Sequence record: PP180005
Reading direction: 5' to 3' (one strand)
Length of the DNA: 53,846 bases
Source: Escherichia phage mEp554
In this document: positions 17,913-25,769 of the stretch, piece by piece
Layout of the letters: each line of letters starts with the position of its first letter
How positions within the stretch are numbered: position 1 is the first letter of the stretch
Made by a program: the position numbers and the translations under genes
Notes under the pieces: model-generated
Seen by the model: only the letters and a program-made list of their open reading frames with translations
Databases searched by the model: none
Told to the model about the DNA's origin: nothing

Positions 17913-18033
17913 TAATGGCGCTTTTTGTCTTGTTTGCATGTATCCATTTTGTATACTTCAAGCAAACAAAATGCTCTTTAAAAATCCGGCAGCGCTGAAA
18001 TGCGTAGAAATCACCTGAAAAGGAGAGAGCATT

Positions 18034-18224: not shown

Positions 18225-18830
18225 ATGCAAAACCCTAAAAAACCCATAAGACGCCGTTGCAAATGCTGCGGCGTTTTTTTTGAGCCTAAATACCATAATC
18301 AAACGTGGTGCAGTGATGAGTGTCTGGAAGAGCTGAAATTTGATCAGCTATGCCGCGACCGTGAGAAGGCTATGAAGGCTATGGAGCGGAAGAAACGCCG
18401 TGATAGCCAGCGTGAAGAACGCAACCGGAAGCGTAAACAGTTAAATCCGCGTAGTTATTGGATCAAACAAGTTCAAAATGTATTTAACGCCTATATTCGA
18501 GAACGTGACGCGCGCTTGCCGTGTATATCTTGCGGGACTTACTACGGTGAGCAATGCGGGTGGGATGCAGGCCATTACAGGACGGTAGCCGCCGCCGGAC
18601 ACCTTCGCTTCAACGAGGATAATTGCCATAAGCAATGTAGGCACTGCAACCAGACACTAGACGGCAACATCGGAGGGTATCGCCCGGCACTGATTCGAAA
18701 AATTGGCCTCGCCAGGGTGGTAGCTCTGGAGAACAACAACGAAACTCACAAATGGACGATTGCAGAATGTAAGGAGCTAATAAACATCTATCAGGCTAAA
18801 TTGGACGCCTTAAGGAGAAAGGCAGCATGA
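18225..18830 (+). CDS. ninG: NinG-family protein
   Basis: RRRCKCCGVFFEP...YWIKQVQNVFNAYIRERDARLPCISCG...WDAGHYR...LRFNEDNCHKQC closely resembles lambda NinG. Confidence 0.85.
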   Translation: MQNPKKPIRRRCKCCGVFFEPKYHNQTWCSDECLEELKFDQLCRDREKAMKAMERKKRRDSQREERNRKRKQLNPRSYWIKQVQNVFNAYIRERDARLPCISCGTYYGEQCGWDAGHYRTVAAAGHLRFNEDNCHKQCRHCNQTLDGNIGGYRPALIRKIGLARVVALENNNETHKWTIAECKELINIYQAKLDALRRKAA

Positions 18831-19234
18831 ACGAATATACATTTAGCCTACCTTACCCGCCATCGAATAATCGCTATTACCGACATTCGCGCGGTTTTCA
18901 CTATATCAGCAAAGTGGGGAAGGAATACAGGGAACAAGTAAGAGACATCATTGAGCTATTAAATTTAAATATTAACCTGCCTTGCCGACTGGCAATTGCA
19001 ATTTACGCCGCGCCGCCGGATAACCGGATCAGAGATCTGGATAATATCCCTAAATGCCTTTTTGATAGCCTTACTTATGCCGGATTCTGGATGGATGACG
19101 GGCAAATTGACTCAATAAAAATTGTCCGCTGCCGGAAGATAAAAGGCGGACGCTTGTTTATTAAGATCCGCGAACGCGGCGACCTACTACCGGATATTGA
19201 CGAATACGCGACTAATATGTGGGGTGAGCAATGA
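18827..19234 (+). CDS. rusA: RusA-family Holliday junction resolvase
   Basis: LPYPPSNNRYYRHSRG...RDLDNIPKCLFDSLTYAGFWMDDGQI matches RusA motifs. Confidence 0.85.
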   Translation: MNEYTFSLPYPPSNNRYYRHSRGFHYISKVGKEYREQVRDIIELLNLNINLPCRLAIAIYAAPPDNRIRDLDNIPKCLFDSLTYAGFWMDDGQIDSIKIVRCRKIKGGRLFIKIRERGDLLPDIDEYATNMWGEQ

Positions 19235-19413
19235 AAAACGAAATTAAAGATCTGCAAATAGATATTCAGCGCGATGAGCATGATTTAGCTACAGTCCGAC
19301 AAATCCAGGCTTTCCACATGAGAGAACTGCTTGCGCTGAAAGAGCTTGAAAGAAAGTTGGTCCAATCAATATCTGATCGTAAACGTCTGGTTGCTCGTTA
19401 CGGGGGCAAATAA
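19231..19413 (+). CDS. Hypothetical protein
   Basis: ORF in operon. Confidence 0.45.
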   Translation: MKNEIKDLQIDIQRDEHDLATVRQIQAFHMRELLALKELERKLVQSISDRKRLVARYGGK

Positions 19414-20135
19414 TGAATCTGGAATCAATTCTTAAATTCCACTTCCCAAAATCACCGCGTTTGTCAGATGAAAGCCGGGGCACGTCCCCGGATGCGCTTA
19501 ATACTACTGATGCACTAACTGCCGCAGGTATGGCGCAATCGCGCGTAGAGCTTGGTTATAGCGCTTTTTTGGGGAAGATGGAACTATCACAAGCCGAAAA
19601 GCATAAGGCCGTAGTTTTGCTTATAGAGCGTTTAAGGGCTATGGCAAAAGACTATGAATACGTTATGGAACTGGACGAGGCCAAACGCAATGATCTCATT
19701 ATTCTTGTTGCCGTTTTCGCATTTCGGGATTATTGCCAGAGTGCCGCGACGGAAAAAACTTGTATGGAGTGCGGCGGATATAAATTTACGTTTGACGAAT
19801 ACGGGGAAAAACACCTTTGTAAAAAATGCAAGGGGCATGGGACAGTTCGCAATCATTGTAAACAATGCAAGGGCCGTGGCGAAGTACCGGATAAAGCAGC
19901 CAGCGAAGCGGCGGAAATGCCAGTGTTCAAAACGTGCCAGCGCTGCGGCGGGCGCGGGTACTCGCGTTTCCCTGTAGATCTTGTCCGGCAGGCGGTTAAT
20001 CAGCTTGTTTTTCCGGTAAGCCGATCAACATGGTGGAAGAAATACCGGGCTTTCTATGAAGACGCCATTGCCGAATTGTTCAAAGAAGAGGCGCGGGCTG
20101 ACAACGAAATTAAACGAGTGACGCGGGGTGAATGA
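19413..20135 (+). CDS. Q-like late antiterminator (phage 82 type) with four CxxCxGxG zinc-finger repeats
   Basis: N-terminal MNLESILKFHF...SRGTSPDAL recalled as Q82-family; CMECGGYK, CKKCKGHG, CKQCKGRG, CQRCGGRG. Confidence 0.6.
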   Translation: MNLESILKFHFPKSPRLSDESRGTSPDALNTTDALTAAGMAQSRVELGYSAFLGKMELSQAEKHKAVVLLIERLRAMAKDYEYVMELDEAKRNDLIILVAVFAFRDYCQSAATEKTCMECGGYKFTFDEYGEKHLCKKCKGHGTVRNHCKQCKGRGEVPDKAASEAAEMPVFKTCQRCGGRGYSRFPVDLVRQAVNQLVFPVSRSTWWKKYRAFYEDAIAELFKEEARADNEIKRVTRGE

Positions 20136-20335
20136 TGGATAAGCTGGAAATAAACGATCAGTTTGCTGTTATCTTATTCGAAGATAAAACAGGCGGCGCA
20201 TGGTGTAAGAAAGTCACTGGTGCGGAAGCGCGTTTGGTTTTGGGTATGGCAAGCGCGTTAAACGAAGGCGAATTACCAGCCATACCTATTAAGCCAGTCA
20301 AAATATACAAACGGGGTGACGATGATGAAGCCTAA
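20132..20335 (+). CDS. Hypothetical protein
   Basis: ATGA overlap with Q stop. Confidence 0.45.
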   Translation: MMDKLEINDQFAVILFEDKTGGAWCKKVTGAEARLVLGMASALNEGELPAIPIKPVKIYKRGDDDEA

Positions 20336-20594
20336 ATTAAAAGAACATCTATTTGCAAAGCTGGTTAATGACCTGACATTATCCGCGCGGTTGTGCCGTG
20401 ATACACAACAATTGAGGGCGTGGATAGCAAGGGATTTAAGAAAATACATTGAGCCAGGCGGACCAGGCGACAAAATGACTATGGACGAGGCCATCAAGCG
20501 CCGTTCGGCTGATTGGTCAGTTAGTAACACAGGATTAACCGGATACATTGAAGGCTATAACGACTGTTTACAGGATCATAGCAATGAAAAGTAA
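20322..20594 (+). CDS. Hypothetical protein
   Basis: GGGGTG SD. Confidence 0.45.
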   Translation: MMKPKLKEHLFAKLVNDLTLSARLCRDTQQLRAWIARDLRKYIEPGGPGDKMTMDEAIKRRSADWSVSNTGLTGYIEGYNDCLQDHSNEK

Positions 20595-20796
20595 CCGCAA
20601 GCGCCTTGTAAGGGCGTATGACAAAGCATTAAAGGCTTTTGATGATCTGCGACACAACAAACGCCAGCGCCGTAAATGGGCGCGTATGCTTGTAAGGGAA
20701 TGGCATAGCGAGGAATATTTCCTTAATGCCAGGCACATGACTCAGGATGTAGCTGACATGTTAGCTGACGAGAACGTTTATTACATGATGTGGTGA
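20584..20796 (+). CDS. Hypothetical protein
   Basis: AGGAT SD. Confidence 0.45.
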   Translation: MKSNRKRLVRAYDKALKAFDDLRHNKRQRRKWARMLVREWHSEEYFLNARHMTQDVADMLADENVYYMMW

Positions 20797-20800
20797 TAAT

Positions 20801-21166
20801 ATGCAAATAATCATTGATTATCTTTGCCATGCTGTGAATACGCTTTTTGGTTTTTATCAACAACCATTCCTAAAAGAATGGGATGAAATGCTTAACGACA
20901 TTATTGACAAAGGGTTAATAGTTGAAGTCGGCGAGCTAACGATAAAATTCAATTACGAAGGAAAGGAATATGAAATATGGGTAGGGAATAGATGGTACTC
21001 ATACGGTCATATTTATTCAATTGGCGGTATGTACATTAAACGTAGCCAGGAGTTCAGGCCGCGATTCCGCACAATGCGCCGCCTGCGTGACCTGCATATG
21101 AATATATTTGAAAATCAGGAAGCGTGTGAACTATTCAAGATCTACGGGGATAAATCATGGAATTAA
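20801..21166 (+). CDS. Hypothetical protein
   Basis: GGTGA SD. Confidence 0.5.
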   Translation: MQIIIDYLCHAVNTLFGFYQQPFLKEWDEMLNDIIDKGLIVEVGELTIKFNYEGKEYEIWVGNRWYSYGHIYSIGGMYIKRSQEFRPRFRTMRRLRDLHMNIFENQEACELFKIYGDKSWN

Positions 21167-21387
21167 AAATCTGGCAGGCTATCGACGTAGTTGATAATGA
21201 ATTGTCTATGTTCGCCACTAACGGGAAACGCGTTGTGATCGCTACATGGACACGTAACCATGATGATATTGCTTTTCGTCGCGCTGCGGCGGAATTGCTT
21301 TTCTCTGATGGCGGCTACACGATGAACATCGCACAGCTTGCCAGAATGAAAGATGAAAAGCTGGTGGACAGCTACACAACTGCATAA
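21157..21387 (+). CDS. Hypothetical protein
   Basis: GGGGA SD. Confidence 0.45.
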   Translation: MELKIWQAIDVVDNELSMFATNGKRVVIATWTRNHDDIAFRRAAAELLFSDGGYTMNIAQLARMKDEKLVDSYTTA

Positions 21388-21397
21388 CGGGGTGAAT

Positions 21398-21628
21398 ATG
21401 CGTATCTATGAGCACAAGCGGGATAAAACCCGCTTTTTTGTTCGTGCTGGCGTTGCGTACTGGTATCACGAATGCGGATACATTGAGGCACTTGCTTACG
21501 ATCTGGATTTTGAGCAGGAAAAAGAATGGTTCGATTTTAAAATTTACCGTAAGCGCAAACCAACGCGCGACGAGCGACACGCTATCCGTGACTTTTTAAT
21601 CAGTATTGAGCGCTGGGGGACAGATTAA
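21398..21628 (+). CDS. Hypothetical protein
   Basis: GGGGTGA SD. Confidence 0.45.
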   Translation: MRIYEHKRDKTRFFVRAGVAYWYHECGYIEALAYDLDFEQEKEWFDFKIYRKRKPTRDERHAIRDFLISIERWGTD

Positions 21629-21855
21629 TGAAAGTTAAATTTTTGCACGATCACGGTTATCCGTCATTGAAACAGGTTGTTGGTAAGGTGGTTAACGTCG
21701 TTCATAGCGATAATGTCACTTGCATGATTAACGGTGCTGACCTCATTGCCGCTGGCGCTGATGATCATTACATTAATCCGGCATGGTCGTATACGTTCAG
21801 CCTGAGTGACTTCGTTGGCGATAAGGGGCGCGGGCTGGAAGTAGTCGAGGGTTAA
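21628..21855 (+). CDS. Hypothetical protein
   Basis: GGGGA SD. Confidence 0.45.
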   Translation: MKVKFLHDHGYPSLKQVVGKVVNVVHSDNVTCMINGADLIAAGADDHYINPAWSYTFSLSDFVGDKGRGLEVVEG

Positions 21856-21859
21856 CATC

Positions 21860-22108
21860 ATGGACGTTTACGAAGATCTATACCTTCAGACAAATACCAA
21901 CACTTTTTATTTTCTGAATAACGGCGTCGTGTATCGCAGTGACGACGGGGTGATAATGAAAGAGTGGTTATTTAAGCGTGAAGATCTACTCGACGATCTG
22001 GTTTTTGCCGGGGTATTTCGTAAACGTCCGGCTAACCTGGAAGAAGAAATGTTGATAGAGGTATTTCAAAATGAAAATCAGGGTAAGTTATTTCCGGGCG
22101 AAAGATAA
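21860..22108 (+). CDS. Hypothetical protein
   Basis: GAGGG SD. Confidence 0.45.
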   Translation: MDVYEDLYLQTNTNTFYFLNNGVVYRSDDGVIMKEWLFKREDLLDDLVFAGVFRKRPANLEEEMLIEVFQNENQGKLFPGER

Positions 22109-22124
22109 GGCAACAGGAAGGCAG

Positions 22125-22322
22125 ATGGCGATCCTGGTTAACGAGGCGCGTTACATGTTTGTGCTTCAGCCGTGGTGTGTTGTAGACCTTAACGACAATT
22201 GCCGCCGTCACGCCGCGCGGAGTGCTGTAGGAATGAAAGGATGGCAGCCGCGCGACATGGGAAACTATTGTGACTGGAAATTGGTGGCAAAATATACGGT
22301 TGATTATAAAGGGGTTTTCTAA
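22125..22322 (+). CDS. Hypothetical protein
   Basis: Start at SD-preceded MAILVNEAR (alternative 22071). Confidence 0.4.
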   Translation: MAILVNEARYMFVLQPWCVVDLNDNCRRHAARSAVGMKGWQPRDMGNYCDWKLVAKYTVDYKGVF

Positions 22323-22534
22323 TGCAAGTTAAATGCACATGCTCAAGCAATGACAGCGTCTTCACTATTGGGCGTGCTTATGACGTTCATATCGTTTATG
22401 GCAATGCGGTTAGCGACGCTGGAGTTACGCTTGTATTGATTGACAATCATGATAATGTGTGGGGATTTATGCCAAATTACCGGGGCGGTGAGATAACTGG
22501 TGTTCATTTCTCGGCCAGCTTCGAGCGTTATTAA
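22322..22534 (+). CDS. Hypothetical protein
   Basis: AAGGGG SD. Confidence 0.45.
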   Translation: MQVKCTCSSNDSVFTIGRAYDVHIVYGNAVSDAGVTLVLIDNHDNVWGFMPNYRGGEITGVHFSASFERY

Positions 22535-22571
22535 TTGCGTCATAATGTTGATTTTAATGAATAAATAAAAA

Positions 22572-22587
22572 TGTGATCTTTATCACA
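22572..22587. promoter_or_regulatory. Perfect CRP-consensus palindrome TGTGATCTTTATCACA
   Basis: TGTGA-N6-TCACA; centre about 60 bp upstream of predicted TSS of the 22605-22633 promoter. Confidence 0.4.
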
Positions 22588-22604
22588 ATGTATACAAAAT
22601 GGCA

Positions 22605-22633
22605 TTGTTTCGGCAGTGCCGTTTTGTTATATA
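22605..22633 (+). promoter_or_regulatory. Sigma70-like internal promoter
   Basis: TTGTTT, 17-nt spacer, TATATA; TATACAAAATGG motif directly upstream. Confidence 0.4.
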
Positions 22634-22666
22634 TAAGTCACTGAAAGACGAATGGAAGGTAAGAAG

Positions 22667-22792
22667 ATGAACGCTAACGCTAAATATCCGGCATGGGTCT
22701 TTGAACTATACGCCCGCTACTTTGAATTGCTGGCACCAGGTGAAGAAGCATTAAGCATTGACGAATACGCTGAGTGTTTAGGGTTCAAATGA
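22667..22792 (+). CDS. Hypothetical small protein (41 aa)
   Basis: GGAAGG SD. Confidence 0.35.
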   Translation: MNANAKYPAWVFELYARYFELLAPGEEALSIDEYAECLGFK

Positions 22793-22850
22793 GACAAAGA
22801 AGAATAAAACACGGGGCCGGATGGCCCAATCAAACCAGAAGGTTGCAATC

Positions 22851-23150
22851 ATGAAAAGCGATAAGTTCATAGCGTGCTGTTTTGTTGAAGTGCCTAAAGG
22901 TGATGTTTTCTGCAATTATGAATTTAAAGACAGTTTAGGCCGATCTCATGTTGTTGTTGGTAAGCGGGGCGATTGGTTATATATAACAGACGACGACATG
23001 ATTTTTACCAGAAATCAACTATTTCACATCAACTCATTAAATAATTATGCGCCAGTTGCCGCTATATCCATGATGGATCTTAAATCTAATATGTGGCTTG
23101 AAAAGGACACTGTGCATAAAGCGCGTAGCTTACCTAGTGCGGAGTTTTAA
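22851..23150 (+). CDS. Hypothetical protein
   Basis: GAAGG SD before MKSDKF. Confidence 0.45.
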   Translation: MKSDKFIACCFVEVPKGDVFCNYEFKDSLGRSHVVVGKRGDWLYITDDDMIFTRNQLFHINSLNNYAPVAAISMMDLKSNMWLEKDTVHKARSLPSAEF

Positions 23151-23152
23151 TT

Positions 23153-23407
23153 ATGGTTGTGATCAGACTATGGCGCGGTAATAGCCGATTTGATGGTAAA
23201 TATATCCGCGTAATTGAAGATGTTAATCGTGGTCGGTTTTATGAATTGGTATACAGCGAAAAAAGGGAGAAAGAATATCTGAACGAATCGATCCCTATGT
23301 GGCGTAAAGTGGCTGGCCTTGCCTTAATTCTGCGCCGCGGGTTTTATACAGATCACAACACACTAACAGATGCGGAACTAGTGACAATTCTTTACAAAGG
23401 AGAATAA
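23153..23407 (+). CDS. Hypothetical protein
   Basis: ORF in operon. Confidence 0.45.
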   Translation: MVVIRLWRGNSRFDGKYIRVIEDVNRGRFYELVYSEKREKEYLNESIPMWRKVAGLALILRRGFYTDHNTLTDAELVTILYKGE

Positions 23408-23410
23408 CAA

Positions 23411-23734
23411 ATGTCTAAATTTATCAGCGTTAATGTTTTCCGTGGCAATTTTCCAGAAGATAAAGAAATTGGACAATTCGCAGGTGAACGTGGCGTATGT
23501 TTCCGTGTAGCTACTGAAGACGATGCGCACGTTAAATGCTTTCACGTATCTGAACCGCCTTTTAATGCAGACCATCTTGAAGACCTGAATAGAATTAAAA
23601 GCCTTATTTTTGCCTATCTGGCGTTCCCTGGCATAGCTGATGCTGATGTGGAATTGGTTGGGGCCGAACTGGTGGCAGAATACAAAATGACTGAAGGCGA
23701 AAACGGAGGGGTGGAAATTGAGCGCATCAAATAA
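23411..23734 (+). CDS. Hypothetical protein
   Basis: AAGGAG SD. Confidence 0.5.
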   Translation: MSKFISVNVFRGNFPEDKEIGQFAGERGVCFRVATEDDAHVKCFHVSEPPFNADHLEDLNRIKSLIFAYLAFPGIADADVELVGAELVAEYKMTEGENGGVEIERIK

Positions 23735-23972
23735 ACCTTACAAAATCCGTTGTAAAGGCGAATATCCTGGTTTTACGATTGGTTGCGAATACATGGGCCA
23801 CATTGGGTACGGCCCTTTCGGTGAATTAGGAATGAATACGCTGGACGACGACGGCGACAGCAGGACGCTTGATCTCGATTCTGATGATTTCGAATACATC
23901 CCGCCAGTGACTTGCCGCGTCGTTGATGAGTTCCTGGCTGAACATGAAGACGATGAGGATGATTATGATTGA
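23718..23972 (+). CDS. Hypothetical acidic protein
   Basis: TTG start with GGAGGGG SD; C-terminal EHEDDEDDYD. Confidence 0.4.
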   Translation: MSASNKPYKIRCKGEYPGFTIGCEYMGHIGYGPFGELGMNTLDDDGDSRTLDLDSDDFEYIPPVTCRVVDEFLAEHEDDEDDYD

Positions 23973-24159
23973 ATGCCTTATTGCTGTGACTGTTTTGCTT
24001 TATATCGCTGGCGCGATCTTGATGTCATGTTTTATTAAGGTTAGTGAGGCTGACCGTTGCGGATTTGAGATCCCTTTTTGGCCTGTATTGGTTTTTCTCG
24101 CTTTCTTTGATGCTACGGTAGTGCAGATCAAACAAGCTATTAAGGAGCGCAAAAAATGA
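23965..24159 (+). CDS. Small membrane protein (two hydrophobic segments)
   Basis: MIECLIAVTVLLYIAGAILMSCFI...FWPVLVFLAFF; GAGGA SD. Confidence 0.45.
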   Translation: MIECLIAVTVLLYIAGAILMSCFIKVSEADRCGFEIPFWPVLVFLAFFDATVVQIKQAIKERKK

Positions 24160-24338
24160 TTGAAGACGGCATCTATGGTGTAAACCAGATGGAAAACGTT
24201 TTTTACATGGTTGACGGCGATACCGTAACAATCAGCGTAGATGGTGGGGAATACGCAGAGCCATTCTTCAAAACAACAAGGGAAGACATTAAGCGAAGCG
24301 TTGATAAAGGCATACTATTTAAGGTTGGCGAGCTATGA
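24156..24338 (+). CDS. Hypothetical protein
   Basis: GGAG SD; N-terminal MIEDGIYG shared with next ORF. Confidence 0.45.
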   Translation: MIEDGIYGVNQMENVFYMVDGDTVTISVDGGEYAEPFFKTTREDIKRSVDKGILFKVGEL

Positions 24339-24511
24339 ACGAGATCGAAGACGGCATCTATTTGCACATGTTATTTAACATCGCCTATTTGGTTAAAGGT
24401 GATAAGGTGATGATTCAGAATCCAGAAAGTAAATGCTGGGAATCAAGCATGATGGATCGTTGGCACATGCAAATGCTACTTGATAATAACCTGATATACA
24501 GAAAGCAGTAA
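24335..24511 (+). CDS. Hypothetical protein, N-terminal paralog of preceding ORF
   Basis: MNEIEDGIYLH versus MIEDGIYGV. Confidence 0.4.
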   Translation: MNEIEDGIYLHMLFNIAYLVKGDKVMIQNPESKCWESSMMDRWHMQMLLDNNLIYRKQ

Positions 24512-24519
24512 AGCCGTAT

Positions 24520-24548
24520 TTGTGGCTCGAAAACAAACGGATTAAAAT
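24520..24548 (+). promoter_or_regulatory. Sigma70-like promoter immediately upstream of lysis cassette (candidate late promoter)
   Basis: TTGTGG, 17-nt spacer, TAAAAT. Confidence 0.4.
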
Positions 24549-24576
24549 ATTACCTAACAATGCGAAACTGTAACTA

Positions 24577-24598
24577 CCCGGCCCCGTGCCGGGTTTTT
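24577..24598 (+). terminator. Rho-independent terminator about 30 nt downstream of the candidate late promoter (tR'-like)
   Basis: CCCGGC-CCCGT-GCCGGG hairpin followed by TTTTT. Confidence 0.6.
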
Positions 24599-24618
24599 GC
24601 TTTGTTGGAGGTAAATCT

Positions 24619-24819
24619 ATGTTCGACAGAATACGGGAGGCGTGTGCGTATGTGACTGGTGCAGTAACCGCTTTTTTCGGTGCTATAACCATCAATGACG
24701 TCGCTGTTTTCGTTGGTATCTTATCAACCATAGGCACATTTGCCGTTAACTATTACTTTAAATCACAGGAGAACAAGCGAGCGCAAGAGGAACACGACGC
24801 GCGAATGGGGAATAAGTAA
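24619..24819 (+). CDS. Holin (pinholin-like, two TM segments)
   Basis: 67 aa; GGAGG SD; resembles phage 21 S-type pinholin architecture; precedes SAR endolysin. Confidence 0.7.
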   Translation: MFDRIREACAYVTGAVTAFFGAITINDVAVFVGILSTIGTFAVNYYFKSQENKRAQEEHDARMGNK

Positions 24820-25311
24820 ATGATTAGCCAATCGCTGAAAAACAAGATTGTTGCTGCGGCGGCTGGTGGTGCAATCGCTATTGCGGCGGTGATGATTAAG
24901 CCATTAGAGGGCGTGGAATACGATCCATATCGTGATGTTGTTGGCGTATGGACTGTTTGCTACGGTAACACCGGAAAAGACATCATGCTTGGGAAGACTT
25001 ACACGCAATCAGAATGCGATGCTTTGCTGAACAAAGATCTACACAAAACCGCAAAAGCGATTGACCCATATATCAAAGTCGAAATATCAGATTTTACCCG
25101 CGCTGCACTTTATTCCTTCGCCTATAACGTAGGCGCAACCAACTTCAAAACATCAACCTTATTAAAGCTACTCAATGACGGCAAGAAATCGGAAGCGTGC
25201 GCACAGCTTAAACGCTGGGTATACGCTGGCGGTAGGAAGTGGCAAGGCCTGGTAAACCGCCGCGATGTTGAATATGCCGTTTGCGAATGGGGGGAAACGT
25301 GGACAAGGTGA
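24820..25311 (+). CDS. SAR endolysin (GH24 lysozyme, phage 21 R-like)
   Basis: N-terminal weakly hydrophobic [21 protein letters not shown] segment; [34 protein letters not shown] lysozyme core. Confidence 0.85.
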
Positions 25312-25769
25312 AGGCGTTAATTATCGCCGCTGTTGTTTGCATTATTGCCAGCCTTACCGCCGTAACGTGCCATTACCAGAGTGAGGCGACAAGGTTACAG
25401 GAAGAGTTAACGACCACGCAAGGCGCACTGAAAACAGCAAGTAACACTATTCAGCAGATGAAGGAGCGAAACGCCGAACTGTCAAAACTTGATAAGAGGT
25501 ATCACGATGAGATTAAAGCTATCAGATCTGACATTGCCGATCTGCGCACTGGTATTGATAACGGCACTATCAGGCTGCGCGTCAACGCAATACCCGTGCG
25601 AGTGTCCGACCCCGCAGGAACCGCCAGCGCCATTAATGGAGCCTCCTGTAGACTCACTCCCGACGCTGAATCGGCTTATCTATCCCTCAGAGAACAACTA
25701 AAAGAGAAAGACGCGAAGATAACCGCGCTTCAGGGATACATCAAAACGCAGTGCTTACGCAAAGAATAA
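25287..25769 (+). CDS. Inner-membrane spanin Rz-like
   Basis: N-terminal [15 protein letters not shown] then coiled-coil; overlaps endolysin 3' end; start uncertain (25281-25308). Confidence 0.7.
25507..25701 (+). CDS. Outer-membrane lipoprotein spanin Rz1-like, embedded in Rz in +1 frame
   Basis: Lipobox LSGC after signal segment; proline-rich [14 protein letters not shown]. Confidence 0.65.
   Translation: MRLKLSDLTLPICALVLITALSGCASTQYPCECPTPQEPPAPLMEPPVDSLPTLNRLIYPSENN

What the first reader, a model, noticed from the sequence alone, without database searches (positions are those of the whole stretch)
20132..24511. Block of about twenty unknown small genes in the delayed-early/late junction, including an N-terminal paralog pair
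Between the Q-like gene and lysis there are about twenty tightly packed ORFs of 40-120 aa, most with good SD sequences and none with a motif I recognise. Two adjacent ones (24156-24338 and 24335-24511) share the N-terminus (M)IEDGIY. One (23718-23972) is extremely acidic at its C-terminus (EHEDDEDDYD) and one (23965-24159) is a two-TM membrane protein. Such blocks are where anti-defence and host-takeover genes concentrate, but nothing in the sequence identifies a function.
Basis: seen in the sequence. Interest (0 to 1): 0.4.

Follow-up and report, generated by a model that had tools for sequence, protein, structure and literature searches.

The report
Small-gene block between Q and late promoter
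This is a real, tightly packed run of 18 small protein genes of unknown function in a temperate E. coli phage of the mEpimmI group; it is part conserved core and part fast-changing cargo, and no search linked any of the genes to a known defence or anti-defence family.

Summary
Between the Q gene (19413-20135) and the holin (24619-24819) lie 18 co-oriented ORFs of 41-121 aa, not about 20. All 18 show a third-codon-position excess of substitutions against relatives, so they are real genes.

The window is a mEpimmI-group coliphage, related to mEp044, mEp010, mEp013 and mEp021.

- **Composition.** o5-o9 occur in 56 of 56 relatives. o10-o18 occur in 20-50 of 56, with divergent alleles.
- **Paralogs.** The "IEDGIY" pair are paralogs along their whole length. 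Their family is tiny: 16 representatives among 1.84 billion proteins.
- **Acidic ORF.** It is predicted to be an SH3-like β-barrel with a helix and an acidic tail, not an Ocr- or ArdA-like DNA mimic.
- **Chimeras.** Natural in-frame fusions between block genes exist in other prophages.

Q is λ-type. A conserved λ-PR′-like promoter, pause element and terminator sits directly before the holin. The block therefore probably forms the tail of the delayed-early operon. An anti-host role is plausible but unsupported. This is an ordinary kind of feature and interest is modest.

The parts
19413..20135 (+). Q antiterminator of the λ type, with a 31-aa insert carrying extra CxxC pairs. It forms the left border of the block.
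   Evidence: PF03589, E 8.5e-31. PDB 7ubm (Qλ), E 4.1e-40. 35% identity to λ Q over the full length, E 3e-49.
20132..20335 (+). o1, 67 aa, acidic. Its ATG overlaps the Q stop codon.
   Evidence: phrog_35000, unknown function, E 1e-39. Substitutions by codon position 44/7/130. Present in 51 of 56 relatives.
20325..20594 (+). o2, 89 aa.
   Evidence: phrog_29262, E 1.4e-55, with the match starting at residue 4 of the longer GTG ORF. Codon positions 61/40/146. Present in 49 of 56 relatives.
20584..20796 (+). o3, 70 aa, basic (pI 10).
   Evidence: phrog_8758, E 7.8e-25, matching the C-terminal half of a 151-position profile. Relatives annotate a 213-bp gene. Present in 52 of 56 relatives.
20801..21166 (+). 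o4, 121 aa. Residues 17-46 resemble the C-terminal half of o17.
   Evidence: phrog_16975, E 1.6e-60. blastp of o17 31-60 against o4 17-46 gives 43% identity, E 3.7e-6; hhalign probability is 42%. A 45%-identical homolog lies in the nin-like region of Edwardsiella phage Edno5. Present in 55 of 56 relatives.
21157..21387 (+). o5, 76 aa, core gene. In mEp021 it directly follows Q.
   Evidence: phrog_38280. Present in 56 of 56 relatives at 82-100% identity. Codon positions 35/35/122. mEp021 layout.
21398..21628 (+). o6, 76 aa, core gene and the most conserved of the block.
   Evidence: phrog_30442, with the match starting at residue 16 of the longer ORF. Present in 56 of 56 relatives at 91-99% identity. 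133 synonymous against 34 nonsynonymous codon changes.
21413..21445 (+). Conserved hairpin followed by a T-run (terminator-like), inside the 5' coding part of o6.
   Evidence: Found by the terminator scan. Folding energy -19 kcal/mol, z -5.0. Nearly invariant in 56 loci, with one compensatory double change (mEp010) and one G·U-preserving change.
21628..21855 (+). o7, 75 aa, core gene. It is the only block gene with homologs in unrelated lytic phages (rV5-like Vequintavirinae).
   Evidence: phrog_5009. 47% identity, E 4e-23, to phage LL12 gp127. Present in 56 of 56 relatives.
21860..22108 (+). o8, 82 aa, acidic, core gene. It is the homolog of mEp021 gp41, which mass spectrometry detected in purified virions.
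22071..22322 (+). o9, 83 aa, basic, core gene. It overlaps the o8 3' end by 38 nt.
   Evidence: phrog_38609, E 3e-54. Present in 56 of 56 relatives. Overlap.
22322..22534 (+). o10, 70 aa, variable. Its N-terminus weakly resembles that of o15.
   Evidence: Present in 20 of 56 relatives at 38-77% identity. blastp against o15 gives E 0.004, but hhalign probability is only 2.8%.
22595..22626 (+). Hairpin with a flanking A-tract and T-tract in the only sizeable intergenic gap (22535-22666). It travels together with o11.
   Evidence: Folding energy -18.2 kcal/mol, z -5.65. Conserved upstream of o11 in five of the six aligned o11-carrying loci, whatever gene precedes. mEp044 and mEp010 annotate a terminator here.
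22667..22792 (+). o11, 41 aa. It is a self-contained insert flanked by hairpins and is the one moron-like candidate.
   Evidence: phrog_22232, with the match starting at residue 6 of the 46-aa ORF. The second ATG is the conserved one. 43 synonymous against 7 nonsynonymous changes. Present in 35 of 56 relatives.
22851..23150 (+). o12, 99 aa (109 aa if it starts at 22821).
   Evidence: No PHROG hit. Relatives annotate 300-bp genes. Present in 39 of 56 relatives at 54-97% identity. A PDB profile search gave only E 0.093.
23153..23407 (+). o13, 84 aa, basic.
   Evidence: phrog_32200. Present in 33 of 56 relatives. Its N-terminus occurs fused to the C-terminal parts of o15 or o17 in other prophages.
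23411..23734 (+). o14, 107 aa, acidic (net charge -9). It is the fastest-evolving protein of the block.
   Evidence: phrog_23107. 224 nonsynonymous against 125 synonymous codon changes. Present in 50 of 56 relatives at 46-99% identity. No PDB hit.
23718..23972 (+). o15, 84 aa, very acidic. It has a conserved TTG start and is predicted as an SH3-like β-barrel, a helix and an acidic tail.
23965..24159 (+). o16, 64 aa, with two hydrophobic segments. It is the only membrane protein of the block.
   Evidence: Hydropathy segments at residues 1-27 and 32-56. phrog_10061, unknown function.
24156..24338 (+). o17, 60 aa, acidic. First member of the tandem paralog pair.
   Evidence: phrog_15318, E 2.3e-18, full length. 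hhalign against o18 gives 92.8% probability.
24335..24511 (+). o18, 58 aa. Second paralog and usually the last gene before the late control cassette.
   Evidence: phrog_15318, E 8.6e-23. It holds the same terminal position in mEp010, mEp013, mEp021, mEp044 and MagusPhagus. A profile of o17+o18 finds only 16 representatives in 1.84 billion proteins.
24520..24561 (+). Candidate late promoter PR′: TTGTGG, 17 nt, TAAAAT, 7 nt, then AACAAT (a -10-like pause element as in λ).
   Evidence: λ PR′ reads TTGACT-17-TAAATT-6-AACGAT. The -10 and AACAAT are invariant in 42 IMG/VR loci and 10 GenBank/RefSeq loci, including loci where the upstream gene or the holin differs. It is the only such composite on the + strand between Q and the lysis genes; chance gives about 4 per window on both strands.
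24576..24600 (+). Strong intrinsic terminator (candidate tR′) just upstream of the holin ribosome-binding site.
   Evidence: Terminator scan. Folding energy -17.9 kcal/mol, z -4.1. The stem is invariant and only the loop varies. Relatives annotate it as a terminator.
24619..24819 (+). Class II holin, the first late gene and the right border of the block.
   Evidence: PF16080, E 1.1e-14. The 201-bp gene in relatives fixes the ATG at 24619.

Best explanation
The region is the small-gene block that every mEpimmI-group temperate coliphage carries between its λ-type Q antiterminator gene and the late-gene control cassette in front of the holin.

**Shown**
- It holds 18 real, co-oriented genes with translationally coupled spacing.
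- A core (o5-o9, nearly also o4) is present in every relative.
- Two variable stretches flank that core: o1-o3, and above all o10-o18. Their content, alleles and length differ between phages.
- The variable part changes by gene gain and loss, tandem duplication (o17/o18) and in-frame fusion of neighbouring genes.

**Inferred from anatomy**
- The late promoter, its σ-dependent pause element and its terminator lie at 24520-24600, not next to Q.
- A boxA-like sequence (candidate nutR2) lies about 1.4 kb upstream of Q.
- The block is therefore transcribed as the tail of the PR delayed-early operon, antiterminated by the N-like protein Gp17. It would be silent in the lysogen and expressed together with Q, before lysis and assembly.

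**Inferred, weakest step**
- The products are small single-domain proteins without catalytic motifs. Most are acidic, and two are modelled as small β-barrels.
- The core ones most likely serve phage development.
- The fast-evolving distal ones most likely act as stoichiometric binders of host or competitor proteins (host takeover or counter-defence).
- No specific target can be named.
For: **Identity of the phage.** The block is 89-94% identical in DNA, over parts, to mEp044, mEp010, mEp013 and mEp021. Similar prophages occur in 35 of 5426 complete E. coli genomes.

**Coding.** All 18 ORFs show a third-position excess of substitutions.

**Core versus variable.** o5-o9 are in 56 of 56 relatives; o10-o18 are in 20-50 of 56, with identities down to 38-54%. 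The distance from the Q stop to the cassette is 3.0-6.7 kb in 42 IMG/VR relatives, about 1.9 kb in mEp021 and about 1.4 kb in L015. Nonsynonymous changes equal or exceed synonymous ones only in o10 and o12-o18.

**Duplication and fusion.** The o17/o18 relationship is. Chimeric proteins P0044, P0047, P0048, P0118, P0125 and P0113 were verified by blastp. One fusion sits as the last gene before the holin in L014.

**Late cassette.** Q is homologous to λ Q. The cassette has λ-PR′-like geometry. Its -10, AACAAT and terminator stem are invariant in 52 relatives, even where flanking genes differ. No comparable composite lies in or after Q. The DNA directly after Q differs between phages with 96-98% identical Q.

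**Operon context.** A boxA-like TGCTCTTTAA lies at 17972-17981. The nut system is published for this group (PMC11893012).

**Small-binder character.** The o15 model is an SH3-like barrel. The o8 model is a five-strand domain. No enzyme family was hit.

**Comparable contexts.** Homologs of o4 and o7 lie in arrays of small unnamed genes, next to the replication genes in phage Edno5 (o4) and next to a DNA methyltransferase gene in phage LL12 (o7).
Against: - No expression data were available, so both the timing and the promoter assignment are inferences.
- The promoter/pause motif alone is not statistically rare, at about 4 chance matches per window. Its -35 is weak, and weaker still in one allele group.
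- The o8 homolog was found in purified mEp021 virions, which fits late expression. The same preparation also contained the early protein Ssb, which weakens that inference.
- No ORF matched any anti-restriction, anti-CRISPR or host-takeover family or any defence family.
- Only 2 of the 18 proteins were modelled.
- The core genes o5-o9 evolve under strong constraint, which does not look like an arms race.
Confidence: 0.45

Rival explanations
1. The block is the first part of the late operon. The true late promoter lies immediately after Q or within it, for example the promoter-like site at 21171-21198 in o5 with the o6 hairpin as tR′. Q-modified polymerase would then read through the whole block and the terminator at 24576 into the lysis genes. 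The small proteins would be late proteins, some of them virion-associated or injected.
For: - The o8 homolog was detected by mass spectrometry in CsCl-purified mEp021 virions.
- A promoter-like CTGGCA-16-GATAAT lies in o5. A conserved terminator-like hairpin about 240 nt downstream has one compensatory change.
- In mEp021, o5 starts at the Q stop, which would give a λ-like Q-promoter-terminator order.
- I recall a precedent (not checked here): Stx phages carry cargo genes between PR′ and the lysis genes.
Against: - The o5 site lacks a λ-like -10 repeat downstream of it and was not picked up by the composite scan.
- Its -35 and -10 vary in some relatives.
- o5 and o6 are clearly protein-coding.
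- Promoter-like sites in the region are no more frequent than in shuffles: 13 found against 14.2 expected.
- The invariant cassette before the holin would remain unexplained.
- Virion detection is weak evidence, because the early protein Ssb was detected in the same preparation.
Confidence: 0.15
2. The genes are morons expressed from the prophage. They would benefit the lysogen through superinfection exclusion, defence or fitness factors, rather than acting during lytic growth.
For: - o11 is flanked by conserved hairpins, has a possible weak promoter (TTGTTT-17-TATATA), and moves as a unit between genomes.
- A perfect CRP-type palindrome lies at 22572-22587.
- o16 is a small membrane protein, as many exclusion proteins are.
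Against: - 17 of the 18 genes have no promoter-sized space upstream and overlap or abut their neighbours.
- The CRP palindrome is perfect only in the window and mEp044.
- PADLOC found nothing significant.
- The exclusion function already shown for this phage group is a lipoprotein encoded elsewhere in the genome (PMC11893012, abstract).
Confidence: 0.1
3. The whole block consists of phage-development genes, such as regulators or replication, packaging or lysis-timing helpers, that simply lack annotation. There would be no anti-host role, and the variability would reflect relaxed constraint and mosaic recombination.
For: - o5-o9 are universal in the group and strongly constrained.
- The published pangenome counts the o8 homolog as a core protein.
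- o16 sits close to the lysis cassette.
Against: - Natural genomes lack most of o10-o17 (mEp013) or o1-o4 (mEp021) and still form plaques (PMC11893012).
- The distal genes have nonsynonymous changes equal to or exceeding synonymous ones, yet keep open frames and a codon-position bias.
Confidence: 0.25

Closest known systems
The same Q-to-holin block in published mEpimmI phages (mEp021 gp38-gp45, mEp044 gp49-gp67, mEp010 gp51-gp73, mEp013, MagusPhagus) and in E. coli prophages
   Same: The position is the same. Q, o5-o9, o18, the terminator and the holin are all shared, and DNA identity is 82-94%. All genes are annotated as hypothetical, apart from mEp021 gp41, 'virion structural protein'.
   Different: - Gene content differs: 8 genes in mEp021, 18 here and about 29 in strain KKa019.
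- This window lacks the ASCH/'RNA-binding protein' gene and the 348-bp gene that many relatives carry after o1.
- Several alleles are only 46-70% identical.
The phage λ nin region and λ's Q-PR′-qut-tR′ late switch
   Same: - Both have a run of small, co-oriented, largely dispensable ORFs in the N-antiterminated PR operon.
- Q is a homolog of λ Q.
- The promoter, -10-like pause element and terminator have λ-like spacing.
   Different: - In λ the small ORFs lie upstream of Q and PR′ follows Q within about 50 bp.
- Here 1.4-6.7 kb of genes separate Q from the candidate PR′.
- The terminator follows the start site by only about 20-45 nt, against 194 nt in λ.
- None of the proteins is homologous to a Nin protein.
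Small SH3-like β-barrel phage proteins of unknown function, such as Gp54 of phage Bas11 (PDB 9axb, trigger of CapRelSJ46)
   Different: - There is no sequence similarity.
- Gp54 has a six-stranded barrel and lacks the C-terminal helix and acidic tail.
- The SH3-like fold is too common to imply a shared function.
DNA-mimic anti-restriction proteins (T7 Ocr, ArdA)
   Same: o15 carries a strong net negative charge of -16.
   Different: o15 matched no Pfam or NCBIfam model and only an unknown-function PHROG. Its predicted fold is a compact β-barrel with an acidic tail, whereas Ocr and ArdA are, as I recall, elongated helical DNA-shaped proteins (not checked here).

Membership tests
mEpimmI-group phage Q-to-holin block | Synteny RusA, 60-aa ORF, Q, small genes, terminator, HP1-type holin, with DNA homology to mEp phages | tested here: met
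   82-94% DNA identity and the same gene order in 6 phages and 35 E. coli genomes.
λ-type Q / PR′-qut-tR′ late switch | Q protein homologous to λ Q | tested here: met
   PDB 7ubm E 4.1e-40. 35% identity over the full length, E 3e-49.
λ-type Q / PR′-qut-tR′ late switch | σ70 promoter followed at about +1 to +7 by a -10-like pause element, then an intrinsic terminator upstream of the late genes | tested here: inconclusive
   TTGTGG-17-TAAAAT-7-AACAAT plus a hairpin and T-run lie at 24520-24600, invariant in 52 relatives. The motif alone occurs about 4 times per window by chance, and the -35 is weak.
λ-type Q / PR′-qut-tR′ late switch | Q-dependent read-through of the terminator | not testable with these tools
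   This needs a reporter or transcript assay.
Morons (autonomous promoter-gene-terminator inserts expressed from the prophage) | Own promoter and terminator flanking the gene | tested here: not met
   17 of the 18 genes abut or overlap their neighbours. Only o11 has flanking hairpins and a possible weak promoter, which is inconclusive for that one gene.
DNA-mimic anti-restriction proteins (Ocr / ArdA) | Membership of the sequence family, or an elongated acidic DNA-like fold | tested here: not met
   o15 matched no Pfam or NCBIfam model and only an unknown-function PHROG. The PDB profile search found nothing. The model is an SH3-like barrel. Only the high negative charge fits.
Known anti-phage defence systems (PADLOC-DB) | Significant match to a defence-system protein model | tested here: not met
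   Best matches are E 0.0097 and 0.025, at 12-13 bits.
phrog_15318 (the o17/o18 'IEDGIY' family) | Full-length match to the family profile | tested here: met
   o17 E 2.3e-18 (profile positions 1-59 of 60); o18 E 8.6e-23 (1-58 of 60). hhalign between the two gives 92.8%. o8 is NOT a demonstrable member: independent profiles do not find it, and hhalign gives 15.8%.
T4/RB69 RegA-like translational repressor (published suggestion for the o8 homolog) | Sequence or fold similarity to RegA | tested here: inconclusive
SH3-like small β-barrel fold | Five-stranded barrel that superposes on SH3 domains | tested here: met

The most novel reading that the evidence does not exclude
The distal half of the block (o10-o18) is a combinatorial array of small β-barrel binder proteins. 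Their N- and C-terminal halves are reshuffled by in-frame recombination between tandem neighbours. This gives each phage lineage a different set of inhibitors or decoys against host defence or competing prophages, functionally comparable to anti-CRISPR or anti-defence islands but built from one modular scaffold. In addition, this phage family has moved the Q target site kilobases away from Q, so that the cargo is expressed with Q rather than after it.
Probability: 0.15. Interest if true: 0.6.

Novelty: new member of a known kind. Interest (0 to 1): 0.3.

Why it matters
**If the inferences hold**
- mEpimmI phages are reported to be as common in human gut samples as lambdoid phages (PMC11893012). 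They would carry a 1.4-7 kb slot, expressed together with Q, in which small proteins are swapped, duplicated and fused. That makes a compact and experimentally tractable place to look for new host-interacting proteins.
- A λ-type Q acting on a promoter several kilobases from its own gene would be an unusual layout for the classic late switch.

**As it stands**
- The block is a typical stretch of phage "dark matter". Close relatives are already sequenced and annotated as hypothetical, and no function can be assigned.

Tried and rejected
- **o7-o8 pair shared with rV5-like lytic phages.** A concatenated-query tblastn suggested this, but direct comparison shows only o7 is homologous. o8 against LL12 gp128 gives E 3.7. 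Claim withdrawn.
- **o8 as a third member of the o17/o18 family.** An HMM seeded with all three found it. That result was circular, because profiles built without o8 do not find it, and hhalign gives 15.8%. Left as unproven.
- **o10/o15 and o13/o14 paralogy.** There are suggestive shared motifs and one blastp E of 0.004, but hhalign probabilities are below 4%. Not claimed.
- **Late promoter in o5 with the o6 hairpin as terminator.** Considered and kept as a rival explanation.
- **Promoter-like TTGGCA-16-GATAAT at 24460-24487, inside o18.** Not conserved where a different gene precedes the cassette. Rejected.
- **CRP control of o11.** The palindrome is perfect only in two genomes.
- **Family and sequence searches.** Pfam, NCBIfam and PADLOC gave no usable hit. 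PDB sequence searches with single sequences and with profiles for o4, o7, o12, o14 and o15 gave nothing below E 0.09.
- **RNA searches.** Rfam and tRNA scans of the whole window gave nothing.
- **Deep homolog searches.** o7, o8 and o15 returned only close E. coli prophage relatives. This limited alignment depth for structure prediction.
- **Literature.** The 2023 Gp17 antitermination paper could not be read. I therefore could not confirm whether the experimentally shown terminator "t5" is the one at 24576.

Full report
**1. What is there**

On the + strand the window reads as follows:

| Coordinates | Feature |
|---|---|
| 18827-19234 | RusA |
| 19231-19413 | 60-aa ORF |
| 19413-20135 | Q antiterminator (PF03589, E 8.5e-31) |
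| 20132-24511 | 18 small ORFs |
| 24512-24618 | 107-bp non-coding segment |
| 24619-24819 | Class II holin (PF16080) |
| 24820-25311 | Lysozyme |
| 25281-25769 and 25489-25701 | Rz and Rz1 |

The 18 ORFs encode 41-121 aa. They overlap by up to 38 nt or are up to 28 nt apart, except for one 117-nt gap at 22535-22651. Most carry G-rich Shine-Dalgarno-like sequences.

Comparison with relatives adjusts several starts. In particular, o15 (23718-23972) uses a TTG start that is conserved in eight relatives, whose database annotations truncate the gene.

**2. Are the genes real?**

Yes. Against ten related loci, every one of the 18 ORFs has most of its substitutions at third codon positions. Examples are o6 at 18/21/143, o11 at 7/6/44 and o14 at 131/94/232. 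These counts come from related sequences and are not independent events, but the pattern is uniform.

**3. Which phage this is**

- The block matches mEp044, mEp010, MagusPhagus, mEp013, mEp021 and mEp515 at 88-94% DNA identity over parts.
- It also matches prophages in 35 of 5426 complete E. coli genomes.
- These are the "mEpimmI" Nus-dependent, non-lambdoid temperate coliphages described in 2025 (PMC11893012).
- All homologous genes are annotated as hypothetical, with one exception: mEp021 gp41, the homolog of o8, is called a virion structural protein because mass spectrometry detected it in CsCl-purified particles. The early protein Ssb was detected in the same preparation.

**4. Composition of the block across relatives**

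I examined 10 GenBank/RefSeq loci and 46 IMG/VR loci.

| Genes | Present in (of 56) | Note |
|---|---|---|
| o5-o9 | 56 | Median identity 84-95% |
| o4 | 55 | |
| o1-o3 | 49-52 | |
| o10-o18 | 20-50 | Identities down to 38-54% |

- The distance from the Q stop to the cassette before the holin is 3.0-6.7 kb in 42 IMG/VR loci, with a median of 5.4 kb. It is about 1.9 kb in mEp021 and about 1.4 kb in one metagenomic contig.
- mEp021 lacks o1-o4, and mEp013 lacks o10-o16. Those genes are therefore dispensable for plaque formation.
- Nonsynonymous codon changes equal or exceed synonymous ones only in o10 and o12-o18. In o6, o11 and the holin, synonymous changes dominate.
- The block is therefore a conserved core flanked by variable stretches, not a uniform accessory island.

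**5. Paralogs and chimeras**

- **o17 and o18.** They align over their whole length at 29% identity. hhalign gives 92.8% probability over 52 columns, and both match phrog_15318 end to end.
- **Copy number.** Relatives carry up to three tandem copies of this family at the same position.
- **Family size.** A profile of the pair, searched against 1.84 billion representative proteins, found only 16 hits. Several of those were long repetitive proteins.
- **o4.** Residues 17-46 resemble the C-terminal half of o17, at 43% identity and 42% hhalign probability.
- **o8.** A relationship to this family is not demonstrable.
- **Chimeras.** The homolog searches returned natural chimeric proteins, verified by blastp:
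  - P0044: o13 N-terminus with o15 C-terminus
  - P0047: o14 N-terminus with o15 C-terminus
  - P0048: o15 N-terminus with o18 C-terminus
  - P0118: o13 N-terminus with o17 C-terminus
  - P0125: an o10-like N-terminus with o18 C-terminus
- In one contig the o15/o18 fusion is the last gene before the holin, as expected from a deletion between tandem genes.
- Whether these fusions are functional or are decay products is unknown.

**6. Function searches**

- **Families.** Pfam and NCBIfam gave no hit for any of the 18 ORFs. PHROGs placed 16 of 18 in families of unknown function. The only functional label is a weak match of o4 (E 3.9e-6) to a "membrane protein" family in the moron/host-takeover category. 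PADLOC gave nothing significant.
- **Solved structures by sequence.** Nothing scored below E 0.09, using either single sequences or profiles for five ORFs.
- **Other phages.** In GenBank phages outside the group, only o7 and o4 have homologs. o7 is 47% identical to a protein of rV5-like lytic phages, within a long array of small unnamed genes. o4 is 45% identical to a protein of Edwardsiella phage Edno5, in the region after the replication genes. o10-o18 have none.
- **o16.** It has two hydrophobic segments.

**7. Transcriptional context**

- **Q type.** Q is a homolog of λ Q: 35% identity over the full length, PDB 7ubm E 4.1e-40, with a 31-aa insert carrying extra CxxC pairs.
- **λ reference.** In λ the late promoter follows Q directly and reads TTGACT-17-TAAATT-6-AACGAT, where AACGAT is the σ-dependent pause element.
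- **After Q in this phage.** The next gene starts at the Q stop. The DNA that follows differs between phages whose Q proteins are 96-98% identical.
- **Before the holin.** The 107-bp segment contains TTGTGG-17-TAAAAT-7-AACAAT at 24520-24561, then a strong hairpin with a T-run at 24576-24600. The hairpin energy is -17.9 kcal/mol, z -4.1.
- **Conservation.** In 52 relatives the -10, the AACAAT and the terminator stem are invariant, and variation falls in the loop. The segment is kept even where a different gene precedes it or a different first late gene follows it.
- **Chance level.** The composite motif occurs about four times per window by chance on both strands. This is the only instance on the + strand between Q and the lysis genes.
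- **Inference.** I take this to be the PR′/pause/tR′ cassette. The block would then lie upstream of the late promoter, in the operon served by the published N-like Gp17/nut system. A boxA-like TGCTCTTTAA lies at 17972-17981.
- **Status.** This rests on anatomy only, with no transcript data. The rival placement, with the promoter just after Q and the block as late genes, is kept at lower probability.

**8. Other RNA-level features**

- **o6 hairpin.** A conserved hairpin with a T-run lies inside the first codons of o6 at 21413-21445, with energy -19 kcal/mol and z -5.0. It is nearly invariant in 56 loci. mEp010 has a compensatory synonymous double change, and one locus has a G·U-preserving change.
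- **o11 module.** The single intergenic gap carries a hairpin at 22595-22626 that travels with o11 in five of the six aligned o11-carrying loci. A CRP-type palindrome at 22572-22587 is perfect only in this window and mEp044.
- **Scans.** Rfam and tRNA scans found nothing.

**9. Verdict**

- The feature is the Q-to-late-promoter small-gene block of an mEpimmI phage: a conserved core plus rapidly changing, lineage-restricted small proteins.
- It contains one well-supported tandem paralog family and one predicted SH3-like acidic protein.
- No function can be assigned. The anti-defence reading remains a reasonable guess for the distal genes, without positive support.
- Close relatives are already in the databases, so this is a new member of a known kind. 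The points of some interest are the apparent separation of Q from its target promoter and the modular fusions among block genes.

Noticed in passing
window 24512-24618: The 107-bp segment before the holin has λ-PR′-like geometry: TTGTGG-17-TAAAAT-7-AACAAT, then a hairpin terminator about 20 nt downstream. It is invariant in 52 relatives apart from the terminator loop, and is kept even where the flanking genes are replaced. It implies that the Q target lies 1.4-6.7 kb from the Q gene.
   Followed up: yes
window 21413-21445: A terminator-like hairpin with a T-run lies inside the first 16 codons of o6. It is nearly invariant in 56 loci. mEp010 has one compensatory synonymous double substitution, and one locus has a G·U-preserving change.
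   Followed up: partly
window 22535-22666 and 22813-22827: o11 moves between genomes as a unit, together with an upstream hairpin (22595-22626) and a downstream GC hairpin. The downstream hairpin reads as a terminator on the minus strand. A perfect CRP-type palindrome, TGTGATCTTTATCACA, lies at 22572-22587 but is degenerate in most relatives.
   Followed up: partly
window 19413-20135: Relative to λ Q, the Q protein carries a 31-aa insert with two additional CxxC pairs. The region also gives a sub-threshold DnaJ central-domain match.
   Followed up: partly
window 17972-17981: A boxA-like TGCTCTTTAA lies in the gap between the methyltransferase gene and the ninF/ninG-like genes. This is where the mEp021 paper places nutR2. 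A terminator-like hairpin sits just upstream of it.
   Followed up: no
L003 1812-2111, L009 1477-1776, L010 1806-2114: Many relatives carry a 99-102-aa gene that RefSeq names 'RNA-binding protein' or 'ASCH domain-containing protein', plus a 348-bp gene, in the stretch between o1 and o4. This window lacks both.
   Followed up: no
window 23718-23972; L001, L003-L006, L008-L010: The acidic gene o15 uses a TTG start that is conserved in all relatives examined. GenBank and RefSeq annotations of several relatives therefore call only truncated 43-59-aa fragments of it.
   Followed up: yes
P0044, P0047, P0048, P0113, P0118, P0125; L014 4001-4216: Natural in-frame fusions join the N-terminal part of one block gene to the C-terminal part of another (o13/o15, o14/o15, o15/o18, o13/o17, and an o10-like N-terminus with o18). 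They occur in other prophages and metagenomes.
   Followed up: partly
L012 2510-2743 (phage LL12); L013 2501-2881 (phage Edno5): o7 has 47%-identical homologs across rV5-like lytic myoviruses. o4 has a 45%-identical homolog in the post-replication small-gene region of an Edwardsiella temperate phage. These are the only block genes found outside the mEpimmI group.
   Followed up: partly
L015 4272-6757: One metagenomic relative has a very short block. A 232-aa protein and an HNH gene lie between the last small gene and the lysis genes, so the right-hand junction is not fixed in all relatives.
   Followed up: no
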